DNA from: an uncultured Planctomycetota bacterium
Lineage (GTDB): Bacteria > Planctomycetota > Planctomycetia > Isosphaerales > Isosphaeraceae
DNA length: 64,000 bases
Assembly (NCBI GenBank): GCA_963845755.1
Contig: CAWJTV010000027.1
Span: 1-64,000 of the forward strand
Reading direction: 5' to 3'
Part shown: positions 43,409-52,400 of the stretch, piece by piece
Numbering within the stretch: position 1 is the stretch's first letter
How the letters are laid out: every line of letters starts with the position of its first letter
Position numbers and translations under genes: made by a program
The notes under the pieces: generated by a model
Database searches by the model: none
Told to the model about the DNA's origin: nothing
What the model saw: the letters and a program-made list of their open reading frames with translations, nothing else

Positions 43409-43427
43409 CCCCTTGCCGGCGTATTCC

Positions 43428-45228
<1,801 letters not shown>

Positions 45229-45300: not shown

Positions 45301-46317
45301 TCAAGACGGCTTCCCTTTCTTCGACCGGCGTTTCCGTGTCCAGACCCGGCGCAGATCATCCGGGCTGGCCGCTGTCTCGATCGCATTGAGAAGCTTACGA
45401 AGCAACTTGTGGTCTTGAATCTCACGGAGATCCGGCATCAAATCCAGACCCTCGGCGCCGAACTTCATTCTCAGGCATGTCTCAATGCCTTGGAGAATAC
45501 CTTCAAGCAAACCCTCCTCCTTAGCCATCCGCTCCGTAATCGTGATAAATGGCATAGACTTCTCCTGCTGATAAACGCGGAGTTCTTGCCCAAACCGCTG
45601 TTCCAGTTCCGCCGGTAGCTCCATGATCCAGTCGATGAACCGATAGAGCTGTCGGATATCTTCCGCATCCATCCCCCGCTCGTACAGCCCCTTGACCAAC
45701 CGCAGCTTCCAGGCATGCCGATCGTCTGGCGACCGACGGGTCTCCAGGGTCTTGAGGTGCGCCAACACCACCATGGCGAACGGATTCGGATCGGCCTCCA
45801 ACTCCTGAACACGAGGCGCGTAGTCCAGCAGCTTGACAAAAGGAAACTCCGTGCCGGTGCGGAAGCCCCAGCGGCTGTATCCGAACTGGCTGGGCCGCCA
45901 GTCAGGATCGTCGTCGGCCAGGATCGCCAGGCTAATCACCTCACGATCATAACGGTCGAAGATCCGATGGTTGTAGACGTACATCCGCTTGGGAAAGTCG
46001 CGCTCCTTCCCGGCCTGCACCTCGACATGGATCAGGATCCACCGCTCTTCGCCGCTCTTGAGCCACACCTTGACCAACTTGTCCACGTAACGCCGGCCCC
46101 GTTTGGCCTGGCGGACGATCGGTTGCAGCTCTTTGTCCAGCATCTCATATCCGCGCGCCCAGTCGATCTCGGCATAAGCCTGCGGGAAGAAGAAGGCCAG
46201 GCAATGCTGGAAATAACGATCCAGCGCCTCTTTCCACGGACTATCATAGTCGATCCTGGGTCGTCTCGGCGCGCTTCGCCCGCCGGTCTTTCCCGACATC
46301 GATTTCCGTTTCGCCAT
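45301..46317 (-). CDS. Rpn-like PD-(D/E)XK nuclease / putative transposase (DYDSPWK type)
   Basis: DYDSPWKEAL, LDKELQ, VDKLVKV...IHVEVQ, RMYVYNHRIFDRY, NPFA, FIDW; C-terminal helical domain. Confidence 0.8.
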   Translation of the reverse strand: MAKRKSMSGKTGGRSAPRRPRIDYDSPWKEALDRYFQHCLAFFFPQAYAEIDWARGYEMLDKELQPIVRQAKRGRRYVDKLVKVWLKSGEERWILIHVEVQAGKERDFPKRMYVYNHRIFDRYDREVISLAILADDDPDWRPSQFGYSRWGFRTGTEFPFVKLLDYAPRVQELEADPNPFAMVVLAHLKTLETRRSPDDRHAWKLRLVKGLYERGMDAEDIRQLYRFIDWIMELPAELEQRFGQELRVYQQEKSMPFITITERMAKEEGLLEGILQGIETCLRMKFGAEGLDLMPDLREIQDHKLLRKLLNAIETAASPDDLRRVWTRKRRSKKGKPS

Positions 46318-46457
46318 GGCGCGTGTCCGAAGATCTTTTCCATTTCACGTCCGGCGTCGGCGCAGACCCGCTTCTTGGCGGCCTGGACATCACGGCCACT
46401 CTCGGGGTCCGGTCCGGCCGGGGCGCGGCGCCGGGCACGCTCCGGCCCCGTCCGGTT

Positions 46458-46483
46458 GGGCTCCGCCCTGCGGCTCCGCCGCA
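46458..46483 (-). promoter_or_regulatory. Tandem GGA-triloop hairpins downstream of TIR-FGE gene 1 (putative DGR target-recognition element)
   Basis: Coding strand TGCGGC-GGA-GCCGCA then GGGC-GGA-GCCC; identical at 49866-49891. Confidence 0.65.
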
Positions 46484-46531
46484 CCACCGCCCAGGCCTCC
46501 GCGAGCCCGGCGTCGTTTCCCTCGCTTGAGC

Positions 46532-47899
46532 TCAGCGACCAGACTCTTCTAGGGCCACGCGGAACCCCAGGTAGCTGCCCCGGTTCCCCGGCACGTTCCT
46601 GATGCGGTACGCCGACCGGGCGAAGCGGGGGTTGTTGATCCAGCTCCCGCCGCGGACGACCCGGCACGCGGCCTGCGTGGCACCCGGCGGATCGTCCACC
46701 GGCGACTCCTTGTAATAATCGGCCGCATACCCATCCGAACACCACTCGTAGACATTTCCGTGCATGTCAAACAGGCCCCATTTGTTCGACTTGTAGCGGC
46801 CTACCGGGGCCGTGTAGACGTAGCCGTCCCGCGCCGCGATCGTCGCCCACTGCCAGTTCGGATACTTCTCCTTCAACGTCCCATCGGCAATGTTCCCGAA
46901 CGCCGCCATGCCCTCGGGGTCGTCGCCGAAGACGTAGCGGGTCGTCGTCCCCGCTCGGCAGGCATATTCCCATTCCGCCTCCGTCGGCAGCCGGTAGGTC
47001 TTCCCCTCCTTCCGGCTCAGCCAGGCAACGAATGCCTGCGCGTCGTTCCAGCTCACGTTGACCACCGGATGGTCGTCGGTCTGCTCGAATCCTGCGTTTT
47101 GCCAGGTAAACTTCGGATCCTGCTCGAACTGCTTCGTCGCCTCATTCCAACCATACCCCCCCTTGCTATCTTTCTTCTCCGCCTCGGTCTGGTAGCCGGC
47201 CTCGTCCACGAACCGGCGGAACTGGCCGCGGGTCACCTCGGTCACGCCCAGGTAGAACGGCCGGGTGATCCGCACCCGATGCTTCTGCATCTTGCCGGCG
47301 GCCTTGTCTACAAACTCATCGTCGTACGCGTCTGGGTCGCTTTCATCCGAGCCCATCAGGAACTCACCGGCCGGGATCAAGGCCAGCTTCATCCCGATCG
47401 AGTTCGTCCACTCCTTCGGCTGTGGCGCACGTGGCTGGTGTGGCTGGAACAGGCGCTCAATCCCTTTGATGAGCCGGTTGATGTTGTTATCGAAGTCCCG
47501 TCCCGGATCCAGATTGAGTGCGTTGCGGTAGGCTAGCCCGGCCAGCGAGGGCGGCAGCTCCGCCTCGCCCGGCATCCGGGCGTGGTCGATCAGGATCGGC
47601 ACCACGGGCAGGTTCCGTTCCAGCGCCGATTCGATCTCGATCCGGACGAAGTCGCGCGGATCGTCGATCCGACGGGCAGCACCGGCCTCGCCGGCCCAGT
47701 GGCGGCCGATCACGGCCAGCAGGATGCCGCACTCGTCGACCGCCGCCTTGATGTGCTCGCGAAAGTCGACACCGAAGGGAATGGCATCGATGTCCATGAA
47801 GATGGCGTCGGGGCCGAAATGAGCGCGCAGGCGATCGTAGAGGAATTGGGCCACGTAGGCCGAATCCTGGCGCCGGTAGGAGAGGAAGATCCTGGCCAT
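46532..47899 (-). CDS. TIR domain + FGE-sulfatase (SUMF1/C-type lectin fold) protein 1; probable DGR target
   Basis: IFLSYRRQD...IFMDID...DFVRIEIE (TIR_2); NSIGMKL, RLPTEAEWEYACRAG, GLFDMHGNVYEW, RGGSW...GFRVA. Confidence 0.92.
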   Translation of the reverse strand: MARIFLSYRRQDSAYVAQFLYDRLRAHFGPDAIFMDIDAIPFGVDFREHIKAAVDECGILLAVIGRHWAGEAGAARRIDDPRDFVRIEIESALERNLPVVPILIDHARMPGEAELPPSLAGLAYRNALNLDPGRDFDNNINRLIKGIERLFQPHQPRAPQPKEWTNSIGMKLALIPAGEFLMGSDESDPDAYDDEFVDKAAGKMQKHRVRITRPFYLGVTEVTRGQFRRFVDEAGYQTEAEKKDSKGGYGWNEATKQFEQDPKFTWQNAGFEQTDDHPVVNVSWNDAQAFVAWLSRKEGKTYRLPTEAEWEYACRAGTTTRYVFGDDPEGMAAFGNIADGTLKEKYPNWQWATIAARDGYVYTAPVGRYKSNKWGLFDMHGNVYEWCSDGYAADYYKESPVDDPPGATQAACRVVRGGSWINNPRFARSAYRIRNVPGNRGSYLGFRVALEESGR

Positions 47900-48026
47900 C
47901 GATCCCTCACCGCATCGTTTCTTCGGTCTTCACTCCCTGATGGATGATACGCGACGACGTCTCGGGGCGTCCAGCACCTGGGGAAGTTGTTCGATTGTCC
48001 ATATTGGCTCGACCCGATCGCATCGC

Positions 48027-48832
48027 TCAGCCCTGTGCTGCGGCCACGATCGTCTCGGCCCAGGCGGCCTGATCGGGTCGGAGCGGAGGGATCATGGCGT
48101 CCTCGCCGTAACGGATCTCGCGCGCGTACGGTCCGGCATCGTAGCAGCGGTCGAAGACGGACTGGAGGTCGAGCGTCACCGAAGGGTCGCCGGGCAAGAG
48201 TGGGATCTCGACCGCCGGCAGGCGATCCTCCAGTCGGATCGGGTAGACGAAGACCGTTTCGAGGTCGTCGAAAGGCCGGACGGAAATGTGATAATCGAAC
48301 GGGCCGCACGCCTCGCGTGCCGCGTCGAGCGGGACGGCCGTCGTGTGCTCGCCGCTGCGCAGGAAGTCGAACTCGATCAGGTGGACCTGGCTCGCGAGGA
48401 TCTCGTTCTGCTTGCGCTTGTAGAGGTCGCGCCCCTGTTCGCCGGGCGTCTTGTTCGAGAGGCTGAGGACCTCGATGGAGGTGACCAGTCGCTTGCCTTC
48501 GCCGCTCCGCGTAGATCTCGACGAAGGGCTCGCGGATCTCGTCGTGAGCGACCTTGATCGCGACAGGCTGGGCCGCGGGTGCATTGGCGACGGCCACCGA
48601 CCGACGACCTCCGGCTTGCGATGTGGTGGACCGCGCGCACCGCACCTCCACGTCGGGGCCAATCGAGCGCCTGAGAGCTCGATCCAGATCCGACGGCCCA
48701 GCGCCGCGAAGTAGGGGCTGGTAGACTCGCCTGAATCGCTTCCCGCAAGTAGGTGATGAAACTGTCGTGGAAGTCCGGAAAGATCTCCGGGTTCTCCAGG
48801 TAGGGGTCCATGCCTGGGAAGGGCGAGGGCAT
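48027..48832 (-). CDS. DUF4058-family protein (several frameshifts)
   Basis: MPSPFPGMDPYLE, VTSIEVLS..NK, YK.KQ.E, HLIEFDFLR.G, LP...IPL, LDLQ. Confidence 0.85.
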
Positions 48833-48899
48833 CGCAATCCTCGAAGTGAACCGGGGCACCGATTAAGGAACGCCCCGAGCGTTCGCCAAGTGAACGGAC

Positions 48900-49798
48900 T
48901 CAGCCCTTGAGCGAACCCAGCAGGTCGGCCCAGGTCGAGACATCCTCGATGCGGTCCTGGAGGTCATGCAGGGTCCCGAGATCGGCGATGGACGCGATCT
49001 GGGCCTGGACCCCTTCTTCAGGGGGACCCAGCTTCCGGCGGCCCTGACGCAAAAGAGTCGCTCTCGCCTCCTCGGCAAGGCCCTCAGCGCAACCCTTGGC
49101 CTCGCCCTTGCGGAGGATACCCTGATAGACCGACGATTCCTCGATCCCTTCAATTCCGAACAACATGGCGGACATCCCCTCGATGATCGCGTCGACCTGC
49201 TTTTCCTCGTAGCGCAAGCCCATCAGGATCTTGGTCGCGTTCCACAACGTCGCCGCCTGCTCCCGGTTGGTTTCCCGCGCCATCCGATCCGACATGGCCA
49301 GGAGTACGCTGGGAACTCGCTCGACCGCGACATTCGACACCGGCGCCAGCGGCAAGACCGGCAAGCCCGCCACCAGGACCTCCTCCACCGGCTGCTGCCA
49401 GACCCTCACGACATTGTAGCGGAATGTGTCGTAAATGTCCCCGTGGCGATCTTGCTGCTCGAAGACCCCCGTCAACTCCGGACCATCGACCACGGGTCGC
49501 AACAAAATGACCGACGAATGCACGGGGACCTGGAAACTGTGTCGGATGATGGTGCTGTACCAGTGCACGCCCTCCGGCAAGTCGGGGTTGCGGCCTGCCT
49601 GGAGCTCGAGGTGCTCGATCCAGGGCTGGGGATCGTCCACCCAGAGGACCTTGTCGGCCTCGGCGGTAACGGTCGAGAGGTTCGAGTCGATCACCTTGAC
49701 CGCGCGGGATCAGCAACCGGGATGTGCAGAAAGCGAAGCCACGCCGCCGGCTCCATCTCGATCAGCTTCCGCAGCGTCGCGTCAAATGGCCTGGACAT
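48900..49798 (-). CDS. Rpn-like PD-(D/E)XK protein (KPFDAT type; frameshifts near 49700-49740)
   Basis: MSRPFDATLRKLIE..P..W, DSNLSTVTAEADKVL, HLELQ, Y.VVRVWQ, LPLAP, ILMGLRY, EESSVYQ. Confidence 0.8.
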
Positions 49799-49865
49799 CA
49801 CCACCCCTATCTGGACCCGGTCCGGCTCGGGCGCGACATCGGGCACGCTCCGGCCCCGGCCGGTT

Positions 49866-49891
49866 GGGCTCCGCCCTGCGGCTCCGCCGCA
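49866..49891 (-). promoter_or_regulatory. Tandem GGA-triloop hairpins downstream of TIR-FGE gene 2
   Basis: Identical to 46458-46483. Confidence 0.65.
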
Positions 49892-49938
49892 CCACCGGCC
49901 AGGCCTCCGCGAGCCCGCCGGCGTTTCCTCGCTTGAGC

Positions 49939-51206
49939 TCAGCGGCCAGACTCCTCTAGGGCCACGCGGAACCCCAGGTCGTTGAACCGGTTCACCGGCA
50001 CGTGCCCGCAGCGGTTCGCCGACCGGGCGCGGCGGGGGCGTAGAACCAGCTCCCGCCGCGGATCACCCGGAGCGCGGCCTGCGCGGCGCCCGGCGGATCG
50101 TCCACCGGCGACTGTTTGTAATAATCGGCCGTATACCCGTCCCAACACCACTCCCAAACGTTCCCCAACATGTCGTAGAGTCCCCACTCGTTTCGTTTCT
50201 TCTGACCGACCGGGTGGGTCTTACTATCGGAGTTCTTTTCGTACCACGCGTACTCTCCCAGCCCGTTCTCATCGTCACCGGAGGGATACCGCGTCGAGCG
50301 GCCGGCTCGGCAGGCATATTCCCATTCCGCCTCGGTGGGCAGACGGTAACCGTTGCCACCAGCAATGGTGACCGTGTCGCCCGCGATTCGATAGTAAGGT
50401 TTCCGACCTTCCCGCTCGCTCAGCTTGTTGCAGAACTTGACCGCGTCCAGCCAGGAGACCTTTTCAACCGGCAGGTCATCCGACCCCTTGAATGTGCTCG
50501 GGTTCTCGCCCATCACGGCCTGGTATTGGCCCTGAGTCACCTCGGTCACGCCCAGGTAGAACGGCCGGCTGATCCGCACCCGATGCTTCTGCTTCTTGCC
50601 GGCGGCCTTGTCCAGAAATTCATTGTCGAACGCATCCGGATCGCTTTCATCCGAGCCCATCAGGAACTCGCCGGACAGGATCAGCGTCAGCGTCATCCCG
50701 ATCGAGTTGGTCAACTCCTTCTGCGGCTGTGACGGAGGCGGCTGAGCTGGCTGGATCAGGCGTTCGATCCCTTGGATGAGCCGGTTGACGTTGTGGTCGA
50801 AGTCCCGTCCCGGATCCAGATCGAGCGCGTTGCGGTAGGCCAGCCGGGCCAGCGAGGGCGGCAGGTCCACCTCGCCCGGCATCCGGGCGTGGTCGATCAG
50901 GATCGGCACCACGGGGAGGTTCCGCTCCAGCGCGGATTCGATCTCGATCCGAACGAAGTCGCGCGGATCGTCGATCCGACGGGCAGCACCGGCCTCGCCC
51001 GCCCAGTGGCGGCCGATCACGGCCAGCAGGATGCCGCACTCGTCGACCGCCGCCTTGATGTGCTCGCGAAAGTCGACACCGAAGGGAATGGCATCGATGT
51101 CCATGAAGATGGCGTCGGGGCCGAAATGAGCGCGAAGCCGATCGTAGAGGAATTGGGCCACGTAGGCCGCGTCCTGGCGCCGGTAGGAGAGGAAGATCTT
51201 GGCCAT
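49939..51206 (-). CDS. TIR domain + FGE-sulfatase protein 2; probable DGR target (1-nt loss in the G run at 50034-50038)
   Basis: TIR nearly identical to gene 1; RLPTEAEWEYACRAG; true end RSANRCGHVPVNRFNDLGFRVALEESGR* at 49939. Confidence 0.9.
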
Positions 51207-51441
51207 CGATCCCTCGCCGCGTCGGTCGGTTCTTCGGTCTTCACTCCCTGATGGATGAGATGATACGCGACGAGGTCACGGGCCGTCCATCCTCTGGGGG
51301 TGCCATCGATTTCGGAAGATGGGTCAATCGAGGCCCGAATTCCCTCTTCAGGTCACCGTGGCTGACGGTCTCTCCCTGTTCGACCAGTCGGCGTGCTGGC
51401 TACAGTGAGAGTCCCTGGCCGATCGAGCGTCCGAGCGACCC

Positions 51442-52050
51442 TCAAGCCGGTCTCTCTCGCTTCGAACGGCGGCTTTCGCGTCCAGACCCGGCGCAGATCG
51501 TCCGGGCTGGCCGCTGTCTCAATCGCATTCAGAATCCGACTCAGCAATTCATGGTCGTGAAGCTCACGAAGGTCTGGCATCAGCTCTAGACCTTCCTCGC
51601 CAAATTTCATTCGTAGGCATGCCTCGATGCCTTCAAGCAGGCCCTTCTCCATGCCGACCCGCTCAAAAATTGTGATGAATGGCATGTGCTTCTCCTGCTG
51701 ATAAGCGGTGAGCTCTTGCTGGAAACGCTGTTCCAGTTCCTGGGGCAGATCCATGATCCAGTCAATGAATCGTAACAACTGCCGCACGTCCTCCGCATCC
51801 ATCCCGCGCTCGTAGAGCCCCTTGACTAGCCGCAGTTTCCAGGACTTCCGGTCAGCTGGCGACCGAGTCTCAGGGTCGTCCACGTGGATCAGGAGCCACC
51901 GCTCTTCACCGCCCTTGAGCCAGACCTTGACCAGCTTGTCGAACGTAACGCCGGCCCTGCTTGGCCTGGCGGACGATCGGCTGGAGCTCCTTGTCCAGCA
52001 TGTCCTAGCCGCGCGTCCAGTCGATCTCGGCGTGGGCGCGCGGAAAGAAG
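51442..52050 (-). pseudogene. Deleted paralog of the 45301-46317 Rpn-like gene
   Basis: DKLVKVWLKGGEERWLLIHV joined directly to DDPETR..DRKSWKLRLVKGLYERG (about 100 codons lost); C-terminal domain retained. Confidence 0.8.
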
Positions 52051-52155
52051 CGGGCTTGACGGCTCGCCTGAACTGGACTGGCGTGAAAGATTCCGGATAG
52101 GATGAGCAGGGCGTCAAGAGGTGTGAGACGAGATGCCAGAGGTGGACGCGTTCCC

Positions 52156-52400
52156 ATGATTCGTGCCATCGTTCAAAATGGGCTCCTGCACCGCTCGATC
52201 CCTTGCCACGCGACTGGGCCGAGGGTCGCATCGTCGTCGTCGAAGACGCCGAGTCTGCCATTTCCGATGATCTCGACGAGTGGTATGAGGAACTCAATCG
52301 CCTGGGACCGGCTCAATATGAGCCGGGTGAGCGCGAACAGATTCGGGCCATCTTGGCGGAAGCCGATGCACTCGTCCGTCGCGAGATGGGATCTCTGTGA
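52156..52400 (+). CDS. Small putative antitoxin (frameshift near 52190)
   Basis: MIRAIVQNG...PLPRDWAEG..V.VE; TGATG-coupled to a PIN fragment. Confidence 0.5.

What the first reader, a model, noticed from the sequence alone, without database searches (positions are those of the whole stretch)
46571..50072. Two TIR-lectin genes carry the adenine-mutagenesis fingerprint of DGR variable regions
Seen: I aligned the 3' ends of the two TIR-FGE genes (46571-46666 vs 49978-50072, restoring one G). By hand count, 15 of 32 codons differ through 20 substitutions, 19 of them at codon positions 1-2. Twelve differing pairs are NNC/NNC (TGC/CTC, GTC/ATC, ATC/TTC, AAC/TAC, AAC/GCC, TTC/CGC, TAC/AAC, ATC/TGC, AAC/CAC, GGC/TTC, AGC/AAC, TAC/GAC), plus AGG/GGG and GGG/GTG; one silent GTC/GTG is the exception. 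The scaffold codons CGCGGCGGGAGCTGG, GCCCGGTCGGCG and CTGGGGTTCCGCGTGGCCCTA are identical. Ordinary drift would favour third positions. Known: DGRs mutate template adenines (AAC codons) in C-type-lectin/FGE C-termini. Inference: both genes are hypervariable sensors coupled to a TIR effector, targeted in trans. Predicted template, roughly: AAC CGG GTN AAC CGC GGC GGG AGC TGG AAC AAC AAC CCC CGC AAC GCC CGG TCG GCG AAC CGC AAC AGG AAC NNG CCG GAG AAC CGG AAC AAC AAC CTG GGG TTC CGC GTG GCC.
Basis: partly seen in the sequence, partly recalled or inferred. Interest (0 to 1): 0.92.

Follow-up and report, generated by a model that had tools for sequence, protein, structure and literature searches.

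The report
Orphaned retroelement-written tips on TIR sensor genes
Two neighbouring bacterial immune-type genes end in a short binding-site segment that carries the mark of a mutation-writing retroelement, but that retroelement, still present in a sister species, is missing from this genome, so the segments look like frozen leftovers of a known system.

Summary
In the last 80 codons of the two minus-strand TIR_2 + FGE-sulfatase genes, codons 36-67 differ at 15 of 32 codons by 20 substitutions, 19 at codon positions 1-2. The flanks have 11 of 20 substitutions at position 3.

The DGR reading of the pattern is supported independently. Real template repeats (TRs) exist in a same-genus genome (G001) and a same-family genome (G015). 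Thirteen of 17 A/B differences fall on positions homologous to TR adenines (Fisher 1.6e-7). In G001 the orthologous TIR-FGE gene mismatches a TR about 615 kb away at 11 adenines against 2 other bases.

This 14.27 Mb assembly holds no matching TR and no DGR-type reverse transcriptase. At three loci syntenic with G001's DGR parts, the RT/TR segments are missing while the target genes remain.

Gene B, C20, C8, C7a and C7b are frameshifted and C26 is a fragment. Only gene A and C48 are intact.

Verdict: genuine DGR-written variable regions, now orphaned and probably frozen. TIR-lectin DGR targets, remote targets and degraded DGR loci are already published. This scan has reported orphan DGR variable regions in other genomes before. 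It is a new member of a known kind.

The parts
46532..47899 (-). Gene A: intact 455-aa TIR_2 + FGE-sulfatase protein with no TM segment
   Evidence: ORF. Pfam TIR_2 at aa 4-143 (E 2.8e-12) and FGE-sulfatase at aa 174-449 (E 3e-61). Maximum KD19 hydropathy 0.98.
46571..46666 (-). VR-A: variable region, codons 36-67 of the last 80
   Evidence: differences from B lie at codon positions 1-2 and at TR-adenine-homologous positions.
46380..46531 (-). Conserved ~150-nt spacer downstream of gene A's stop
   Evidence: Shared only with the other VR-bearing paralogues: B 89%, C26 80%, and parts in C7a, C7b and C8. Also shared with the VR-to-TR spacer of G001. The fold is not better than shuffles, z = -0.36.
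49939..51206 (-). Gene B: TIR_2 + FGE-sulfatase, frameshifted inside its VR (frames 49992..51206 and 49939..50187)
   Evidence: Its FGE core resembles that of G001's TIR-FGE gene (read by eye).
49978..50072 (-). VR-B, with a 1-nt deletion in the run at 50034-50038
49788..49938 (-). Conserved spacer downstream of gene B
   Evidence: 89% identity to A's spacer over 155 nt.
45301..46317 (-). 338-aa ORF downstream of A, with only weak similarity to Rpn/PD-(D/E)XK nucleases
   Evidence: NCBIfam TIGR01784 E 0.0085 (below cut-off). Pfam PDDEXK_2 E 0.22. A homologue sits upstream of G001's TIR-FGE gene.
48900..49694 (-). 264-aa ORF downstream of B; faint DUF4351 match at its C-terminus
   Evidence: E 0.076, below threshold.
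48027..48859 (-). Frameshifted DUF4058 gene between the two units
   Evidence: profile positions 1-38 in one frame and 112-253 in another.
51353..52297 (-). Degenerate ORF upstream of B. By eye its C-terminal half resembles the 338-aa ORF
   Evidence: Translation only. No family hit.

Best explanation
The two genes encode soluble proteins with an N-terminal TIR domain, the effector type used in bacterial anti-phage systems. The C-terminus is an FGE-sulfatase, C-type-lectin-fold domain. Its last ~32 codons form a variable region (VR) that was written by a diversity-generating retroelement (DGR).

In a DGR, a reverse transcriptase copies a template repeat (TR), misreads its adenines and overwrites the VR. 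This randomises positions 1-2 of AAC-type codons and leaves the scaffold intact. Both VRs were written from one TR with the same scaffold. That TR is a relative of those still present in the sister species, but not identical to them.

In this genome the retroelement is gone, both RT and TR, so the VRs are frozen. Most family members are decaying. Gene A may persist as a fixed-specificity sensor.

Shown: the signature, its match to real TR adenines, the live-looking DGRs and trans target in the congener, and the missing RT/TR here.

Inferred: loss in this lineage rather than gain in the congener, the single shared TR, and the sensor-to-TIR signalling function.
For: Signature:
- 19 of 20 VR substitutions are at codon positions 1-2, against 9 of 20 in the flanks.
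- 12 of 15 differing codon pairs are NNC/NNC.
- 13 of 17 A/B differences lie at TR-adenine-homologous columns, p=1.6e-7. The positive control, G001's VR against its own TR, gives 17 of 19.

Relatives hold real DGRs of this type:
- G001 C12 has a kinase-FGE target, HRDC, RT and TR.
- G001 C13 has an RT with a TR, and VRs in genes that begin with TIR.
- G001 C2 has a TR 170 nt downstream of a kinase-FGE VR.
- G015 has a TR.
- G001's TIR-FGE orthologue mismatches TR_C2 at 11 A and 2 non-A positions.

Absence in G000:
- BLAST with the VRs and with G001's TR finds only gene 3' ends.
- No AAC-rich window carries the FGE scaffold.
- No A-biased repeat pair lies within 5 kb of any of the 36 RT regions I listed from the 42 RVT_1 matches. 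The same approach recovers the G001 pairs.
- tblastn with 5 DGR RTs gives at best 27-28% identity over ~230 aa, to a group-II-like RT.
- 0 of 31 candidates pass at E<=1e-20.
- The RT motif regex hits 5 of 5 DGR RTs of relatives and no RT in G000.

Synteny:
- G001 C13:407470-412007 matches G000 C11:829892-834414 at 88%. The next 2,078 nt, holding RT and TR, are replaced by 144 nt.
- G001's 7.2-kb C12 cassette has no counterpart between flanks that map to G000 C38.
- G001's TR-bearing 975 nt on C2 are replaced by 164 nt at G000 C20.

Decay:
- B has a -1 and C20 a +1 shift in the VR.
- C8 is split across frames.
- C7a and C7b share a +1 shift in the TIR domain.
- C26 is a fragment with a stop.

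Scaffold: non-A VR columns differ at 4 of 85 positions against 37 of 299 in the flanks (p=0.046). This fits overwriting by one TR.
Against: - The assembly has 49 contigs and is rated 87.9% complete. A DGR on an unassembled piece or plasmid cannot be excluded.
- Several RT hits sit at contig ends.
- The actual template of A and B was found nowhere. Two metagenome scans and two genome scans with the scaffold pattern gave 0, 0, 5 and 1 loci, and all six were VRs.
- Loss here is inferred from one congener. Gain in the congener would give the same picture.
- TR-adenine positions coincide with ligand-contact codons, which could also vary fastest under ordinary diversifying selection.
- B's frameshift lies in a homopolymer and could be an assembly error.
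- No reads covering the VRs were available, so present-day invariance is not shown.
- The scaffold-versus-flank contrast is only p=0.046.
Confidence: 0.66

Rival explanations
1. The DGR is alive. An RT and TR sit on DNA missing from this assembly (a gap, plasmid or prophage) and still rewrite gene A, and perhaps C48, in trans.
For: - Completeness is 87.9% in 49 contigs.
- Trans targeting over about 615 kb is seen in G001.
- Trans activity is reported in print (PMC10907252 and PMC7517822, passages read).
- Gene A is intact.
- A and B share one scaffold.
Against: - All three DGR component loci of the congener have syntenic counterparts here that lack the RT/TR.
- No DGR-type RT fragment was found anywhere in 14.27 Mb.
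- Six of eight family members are broken.
- The completeness figure is a poor guide in this family: a one-contig relative scores 58%.
Confidence: 0.22
2. No retroelement was ever involved. The paralogues diverged under diversifying selection on ligand-contact residues, and strong GC3 codon bias keeps the third positions at C.
For: - The genome is GC-rich and 40.7% of gene A's codons outside the VR are NNC.
- Contact residues of the lectin fold are expected to vary most.
- The 3' segments of A and B are not very young: the pre-VR stretch shows 18 differences in 105 nt.
Against: - 12 of 15 NNC/NNC pairs is unlikely under the gene's own codon usage (p=0.0023).
- Differences fall on adenines of real TRs (p=1.6e-7).
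- The orthologue in G001 is an almost pure adenine-mismatch copy of a TR (11 against 2).
- The scaffold is better conserved than the flanks.
Confidence: 0.07
3. The pattern is an assembly or collapse artefact of repeated gene ends.
For: - The family has at least 8 similar 3' ends.
- B's indel lies in a homopolymer.
Against: - Both copies sit inside a 327-kb contig with distinct flanks.
- Three contigs of an independent soil metagenome match parts of the region without a difference, though not the VRs.
- C7a and C7b share an inherited frameshift, so at least some of the lesions are real.
Confidence: 0.02

Closest known systems
DGR targets that fuse a C-terminal CLec/FGE VR to conflict-system domains (TIR, CHAT, kinase, STAND) in multicellular bacteria: Thiohalocapsa PB-PSB1 and relatives (PMC10907252, passages read); cyanobacterial variable proteins with kinase, caspase-like and TIR-like domains and remote targets (PMC7517822, passages read)
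   Same: - C-terminal FGE-type VR with an N-terminal TIR effector.
- Paralogue families with kinase and caspase partners.
- Remote (trans) targets.
- Mobile-element genes and degraded components at the loci.
- New targets made by grafting CLec ends onto other domains, as in the mosaic A versus B.
   Different: - Here the genome has neither RT nor TR, so the targets are orphans.
- The host is a planctomycete, judged from the source names of homologues.
- A and B are plain two-domain soluble proteins without NTPase or vWA parts.
Treponema denticola TvpA (PDB 2Y3C), the prototype FGE-type DGR variable protein
   Same: FGE-sulfatase fold with the VR at the C-terminus. Sequence match E 4.3e-15 over aa 299-450.
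   Different: - Gene A's domain is closer in sequence to true FGE enzymes (2Q17, E 2.7e-36).
- TvpA has no TIR domain. This, and its being a lipoprotein, are recalled and come from no call.
Thoeris ThsB-type TIR defence proteins
   Same: TIR domain with weak matches to ThsB models (PADLOC E 1.2e-6) and to ThcB4 (NCBIfam E 9.3e-9).
   Different: - No ThsA partner was identified near the genes; only five neighbouring ORFs were scanned against PADLOC.
- The sensor is a fused lectin-fold domain.
- Scores lie far below family cut-offs.
Orphan or frozen DGR variable regions reported earlier by this scan in other genomes (e1-5069696, e1-4681255, e1-981665)
   Same: A VR signature without RT or TR, frameshifted VRs, and decayed cassettes beside sensor proteins.
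   Different: Here the loss is documented by synteny with a congener that still carries three DGR component loci, and the targets carry TIR domains.

Membership tests
DGR variable protein (target gene) | VR at the 3' end of a gene encoding a C-type-lectin/FGE-fold domain | tested here: met
   FGE-sulfatase at aa 174-449 of 455. The VR is codons 36-67 of the last 80.
DGR variable protein (target gene) | A cognate TR in the same genome whose mismatches to the VR are nearly all at TR adenines | tested here: not met
   No TR in G000. The TRs of G001 and G015 differ from A and B at 11-14 non-A positions. The feature is met for the orthologue in G001, with 11 A against 2 non-A mismatches.
DGR variable protein (target gene) | Substitutions confined to codon positions 1-2 of AAC-type codons, with an invariant scaffold | tested here: met
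   19 of 20 substitutions at positions 1-2, 12 of 15 NNC/NNC pairs, and 13 of 17 differences at TR-adenine-homologous columns.
Complete DGR system | DGR-clade reverse transcriptase (IGxxxSQ ... YxDD motifs; the motif is recalled and was validated on 5 of 5 RTs of relatives) | tested here: not met
   42 RVT_1 matches, and those I scored look group-II-like. There was no motif hit in an RT, tblastn gave at most 28% identity over ~230 aa, and 0 matches passed at 1e-20.
Complete DGR system | Accessory gene (Avd or HRDC) next to the RT/TR | tested here: not met
   Five PF05635 (Avd-like) genes exist, none near an RT hit. G001's C12 DGR has an HRDC domain. HRDC was not searched for in G000.
Complete DGR system | IMH and hairpin/cruciform just downstream of the VR | tested here: inconclusive
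   A conserved 150-nt spacer contains a 6-bp hairpin, but the fold z-score is -0.36. No TR is available to define IMH against IMH*.
Complete DGR system | Ongoing VR diversification in the population | not testable with these tools
   The only run found holds 9% of the words and its contigs do not cover the VRs.
TIR-domain immune effector | TIR fold with a conserved catalytic glutamate | tested here: inconclusive
   TIR_2 hit at E 2.8e-12. E88 and E90 are invariant in 22 family members. Which of them is catalytic is recalled, not tested, and NADase activity cannot be tested here.
Formylglycine-generating enzyme (true FGE) | Paired catalytic cysteines in the C-terminal segment (positions recalled) | tested here: not met
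   Between GGSW and GFRVA, gene A reads INNPRFARSAYRIRNVPGNRGSYL with no cysteine. It is a binding-type domain, not an enzyme-type one. All NCBIfam enzyme models score far below their cut-offs.

The most novel reading that the evidence does not exclude
DGR cassettes in this planctomycete genus may behave as transient writers. They are present in one species and cleanly missing at the same loci in its sister, so a whole repertoire of TIR, kinase and other lectin-tipped sensors is written during a window of DGR presence. The repertoire is then frozen. Intact copies such as gene A are kept as hard-wired specificities and the rest decay. The mosaic FGE cores and the weakly Rpn-like ORF beside each TIR-FGE unit, syntenic in both species, could be the machinery that shuffles VR-bearing ends onto new effector domains.
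Probability: 0.2. Interest if true: 0.55.

Novelty: new member of a known kind. Interest (0 to 1): 0.4.

Why it matters
This is a clean, checkable case of what remains after a hypermutation system is lost. A family of immune-type sensors keeps binding tips that still carry the retroelement's signature, while a sister species keeps the writer.

It also shows that a DGR template can be predicted from two variable regions alone and then recognised in relatives.

For planctomycetes it adds TIR-lectin proteins to the set of DGR-diversified putative antigen sensors. These come in soluble forms and in forms with a strongly hydrophobic stretch that looks like one membrane pass.

It does not reveal a new mechanism. 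TIR-CLec targets, remote targets and degraded DGR loci are all in print.

Tried and rejected
- **Own-genome TR searches.** BLAST with both VRs, with 36 FGE 3' ends and with G001's TR found only gene ends. An in-frame AAC-density scan did the same. C11:834196-834318 looked TR-like (AAC-rich, 92% identical to G001's C13 TR). It proved to be the VR of the orthologous target gene, followed by its own downstream flank.\n- **C43:45189-45398.** A weak FGE-like hit with no A bias.\n- **RTs next to FGE genes.** C36:45437 and C7:44181 are copies of a five-copy group-II-type RT (TIGR04416, 243 bits), not DGR RTs.\n- **Avd-like genes.** Five found, none beside an RT.\n- **Collection scans.** Using the A/B scaffold with N at the differing positions, the long pattern gave 0 loci in metagenome contigs and 0 in genome contigs. 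The shorter pattern gave 5 and 1 loci, all VRs and none a TR.\n- **Sequencing runs.** One coded soil-metagenome run held 9% of the words, and no RNA holder was listed. Its contigs match three short parts of the region perfectly but leave both VRs uncovered. This says nothing about VR polymorphism or B's frameshift.\n- **Spacer fold.** Folding the post-stop spacer as DNA gave a result no better than shuffles.\n- **Neighbour ORFs.** Pfam, NCBIfam and PADLOC gave only sub-threshold hints of Rpn, PDDEXK_2 and DUF4351.\n- **Earlier notes.** None exist for this genome.\n- **Structure prediction.** Not run: it would not discriminate between the explanations.

Full report
**What is there.** The window is G000:C27:1-64000 of a 14.27-Mb, 49-contig assembly rated 87.9% complete. 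Source names of homologues point to a planctomycete: Pirellulales and Planctomycetota MAGs and a Thermoguttaceae MAG.

On the minus strand lie two genes:
- Gene A, 46532..47899, 455 aa.
- Gene B, 49939..51206, read in two frames: 49992..51206 and 49939..50187.

Both have Pfam TIR_2 at the N-terminus and FGE-sulfatase over the rest. Neither has a hydrophobic stretch; maximum KD19 is 0.98 and 1.22.

**The observation.** Codons 36-67 correspond to 46571-46666 in A and 49978-50072 in B.
- 15 of 32 codons differ by 20 substitutions.
- 19 are at positions 1-2 and one is a silent GTC/GTG.
- 12 of the 15 differing pairs are NNC/NNC.
- The three scaffold blocks are identical.

In the 48 flanking codons, 11 of 20 substitutions are at position 3 (Fisher p=0.0012). 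NNC codons are 40.7% of gene A outside the VR, so 12 or more of 15 has p=0.0023. B lacks one base in a five-base homopolymer at 50034-50038.

A and B are mosaics, not simple duplicates:
- about 97% identical over the first ~680 nt;
- essentially unrelated over ~680-1140;
- 86-90% identical from there through about 155 nt past the stop.

By eye, B's FGE core resembles that of G001's TIR-FGE gene and A's resembles that of G001's kinase-FGE gene.

**Independent test of the DGR reading.** A DNA search of 40 relatives with A's 3' end gave matches in 12 of 41 genomes, G000 included. Some matches covered only the VR part, and these proved to be real template repeats.

In the same-genus genome G001:
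- A TR lies 170 nt downstream of a kinase-FGE gene on C2. It differs from that gene's VR at 17 adenines and 2 other bases.
- A full DGR on C12 has a kinase-FGE target, an HRDC domain, a 325-aa RT with IGSLTSQ...YMDD, and a TR right after the RT.
- A third DGR on C13 has its TR at the end of the RT frame. Its VRs lie in genes that begin with TIR domains. The TR/VR mismatches are 12 of 15 and 7 of 9 at A.

By my hand count, 29 of 38 codons are identical and 11 of 13 predicted AAC codons are AAC.

Thirteen of the 17 A/B differences fall on columns where G001's C2 TR has adenine (24 A in 109 columns; Fisher 1.6e-7). Against the C12 TR the count is 12 of 17 (9.2e-6).

Most telling, G001's orthologue of the TIR-FGE gene (C2:231932-233946) has a VR that mismatches the C2 TR at 11 adenines and 2 other bases, plus three indels. 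That TR lies about 615 kb away on the same contig. TIR-FGE genes of this family are therefore DGR targets in trans in the sister species.

**Is the retroelement in this genome?** I found none.
- BLAST with both VRs, with 36 FGE 3' ends and with G001's TR returned only gene 3' ends.
- An in-frame AAC-density scan returned no window with the FGE scaffold.
- The genome has 42 RVT_1 matches. The six RT frames I scored included five from G000, and these best fit the group II intron maturase model at 155-243 bits. G001's DGR RT scored 103 bits.
- No A-biased repeat pair lies within 5 kb of the 36 RT regions I listed from the 42 matches. The same kind of comparison recovers G001's pairs.
- tblastn with five DGR RTs of relatives gave at best 27-28% identity over ~230 aa, to the C19 group-II-like RT.
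- The genome search scored 0 of 31 candidates at E<=1e-20. G001, G005, G040 and G012 have matches at 38-100% identity.
- A regex for the recalled DGR RT motifs hits 5 of 5 RTs of relatives and no RT in G000.
- Five Avd-like genes exist, none beside an RT.

**Synteny makes the absence specific.**
- G001 C13:407470-412007 is the TIR-headed target. It matches G000 C11:829892-834414 at 88%. G001's next 2,078 nt, holding RT and TR, are replaced by 144 nt before homology resumes.
- G001's C12 cassette (about 7.2 kb, L038 2316-9525) has no counterpart, although both flanks map to G000 C38.
- G001's TR-bearing 975 nt on C2 correspond to 164 nt at G000 C20:603554-603718, next to the orthologous kinase-FGE gene.

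The completeness score is a weak guide here, since a one-contig relative scores 58%.

**State of the family in G000.** Eight 3' ends of this VR type exist.

| Copy | State |
|---|---|
| Gene A | intact |
| C48 | intact |
| Gene B | -1 frameshift in the VR |
| C20 | +1 in the VR, leading to a stop |
| C8 | split across frames |
| C7a, C7b | share a +1 in the TIR domain, so that lesion is inherited and not a read error |
| C26 | fragment with a stop |

A and B share a scaffold. Non-A VR columns differ at 4 of 85 positions against 37 of 299 in the flanks (p=0.046). This fits overwriting of both by one TR after their flanks had diverged.

That TR was neither of the two compared. A and B differ from G001's TR at 13 non-A positions, and from G015's at 14 (A) and 11 (B). 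Pattern scans of the metagenome and genome collections found only six further VRs.

**Mechanism.**
- Shown: domain make-up, the VR signature, and the DGR link in the congener.
- Established knowledge: DGR RTs copy the TR with adenine-specific errors and replace the VR. This is as recounted in PMC7159879 and PMC10907252 (passages read).
- Inferred: the lectin-fold tip binds a ligand and the TIR domain is the output.

The TIR domain has weak ThsB and ThcB4 matches and invariant glutamates E88 and E90 in 22 homologues. The domain is not a true FGE. No cysteine lies between GGSW and GFRVA, and enzyme models score far below their cut-offs. The catalytic-cysteine positions are recalled.

**Comparison with what is known.** The following rests on passages read, not on whole papers.
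- PMC10907252 describes TIR-, CHAT-, kinase- and STAND-fused CLec DGR targets, trans-diversified remote loci, and DGR loci degraded by transposons.
- PMC7517822 describes TIR-like domains among cyanobacterial variable proteins, and remote targets.
- PMC7159879 describes FGS domains in conflict systems, including planctomycetes.

TIR_2 + FGE proteins are common. By hand count, 44 of the 120 best hits carry both domains, the window's own two included. The closest, P0002 (85% identical), differs from A at the same variable positions.

This scan has reported orphan or frozen DGR VRs in other genomes before. I did not re-test those notes.

**Verdict.** The claim that these are presently hypervariable, trans-targeted sensors is not supported for this genome. 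The best reading is relic VRs after loss of the retroelement (0.66), with a live DGR on unassembled DNA as the main rival (0.22). This is a new member of a known kind and of moderate interest.

Noticed in passing
window 46532-51206 (A versus B): A and B are mosaics. The TIR domain and linker are about 97% identical, the FGE core (~680-1140 nt) is unrelated, and the 3' end is 86-90% identical. By eye, A's core resembles G001's kinase-FGE gene and B's resembles G001's TIR-FGE gene, which suggests grafting of lectin cores between effector classes.
   Followed up: partly
window 45301-46317, 48900-49694, 51353-52297; G001:C2:230740-231651: An ORF with only sub-threshold similarity to Rpn, PD-(D/E)XK and DUF4351 families flanks each TIR-FGE unit. 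A homologue sits upstream of the orthologous gene in G001, so this is a conserved two-gene module of unknown meaning.
   Followed up: partly
window 48027-48859: A DUF4058 gene split over two frames lies between the two TIR-FGE units.
   Followed up: no
G000:C11:829892-834414 (outside the window): A long TIR-headed target gene has a VR (834196-834318) that is 92% identical to G001's C13 TR, so it is barely mutated. The RT+TR cassette present in G001 is missing here.
   Followed up: yes
Homologues P0005-P0034: Eleven of 32 TIR-FGE homologues examined have a strongly hydrophobic 19-residue stretch (KD19 > 2.3). In the two of these that were aligned (P0014, P0034) and in G001's orthologue it lies between the TIR and FGE domains, which would give a Toll-like-receptor-like topology. 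A and B are soluble forms.
   Followed up: partly
G000 genome-wide; L043-L045: There are 42 RVT_1 matches. They include a five-copy identical group-II-type RT (C7, C34 twice, C36, C42) and several RT genes split by 2-3.5-kb insertions. Some sit at contig ends.
   Followed up: partly
G001:C2:849000-849700 (L020 1796-2659): Just past the stand-alone TR on G001 C2, an open frame ends in a stretch reading HAE...PCPDC. From memory this resembles a deaminase zinc motif. It was not checked against any library.
   Followed up: no
window 43413-45134: The C-terminal ~50 residues of the ABC-F-type ATPase ORF look unlike the usual family tail, so a frameshift is possible. This was judged by eye only.
   Followed up: no
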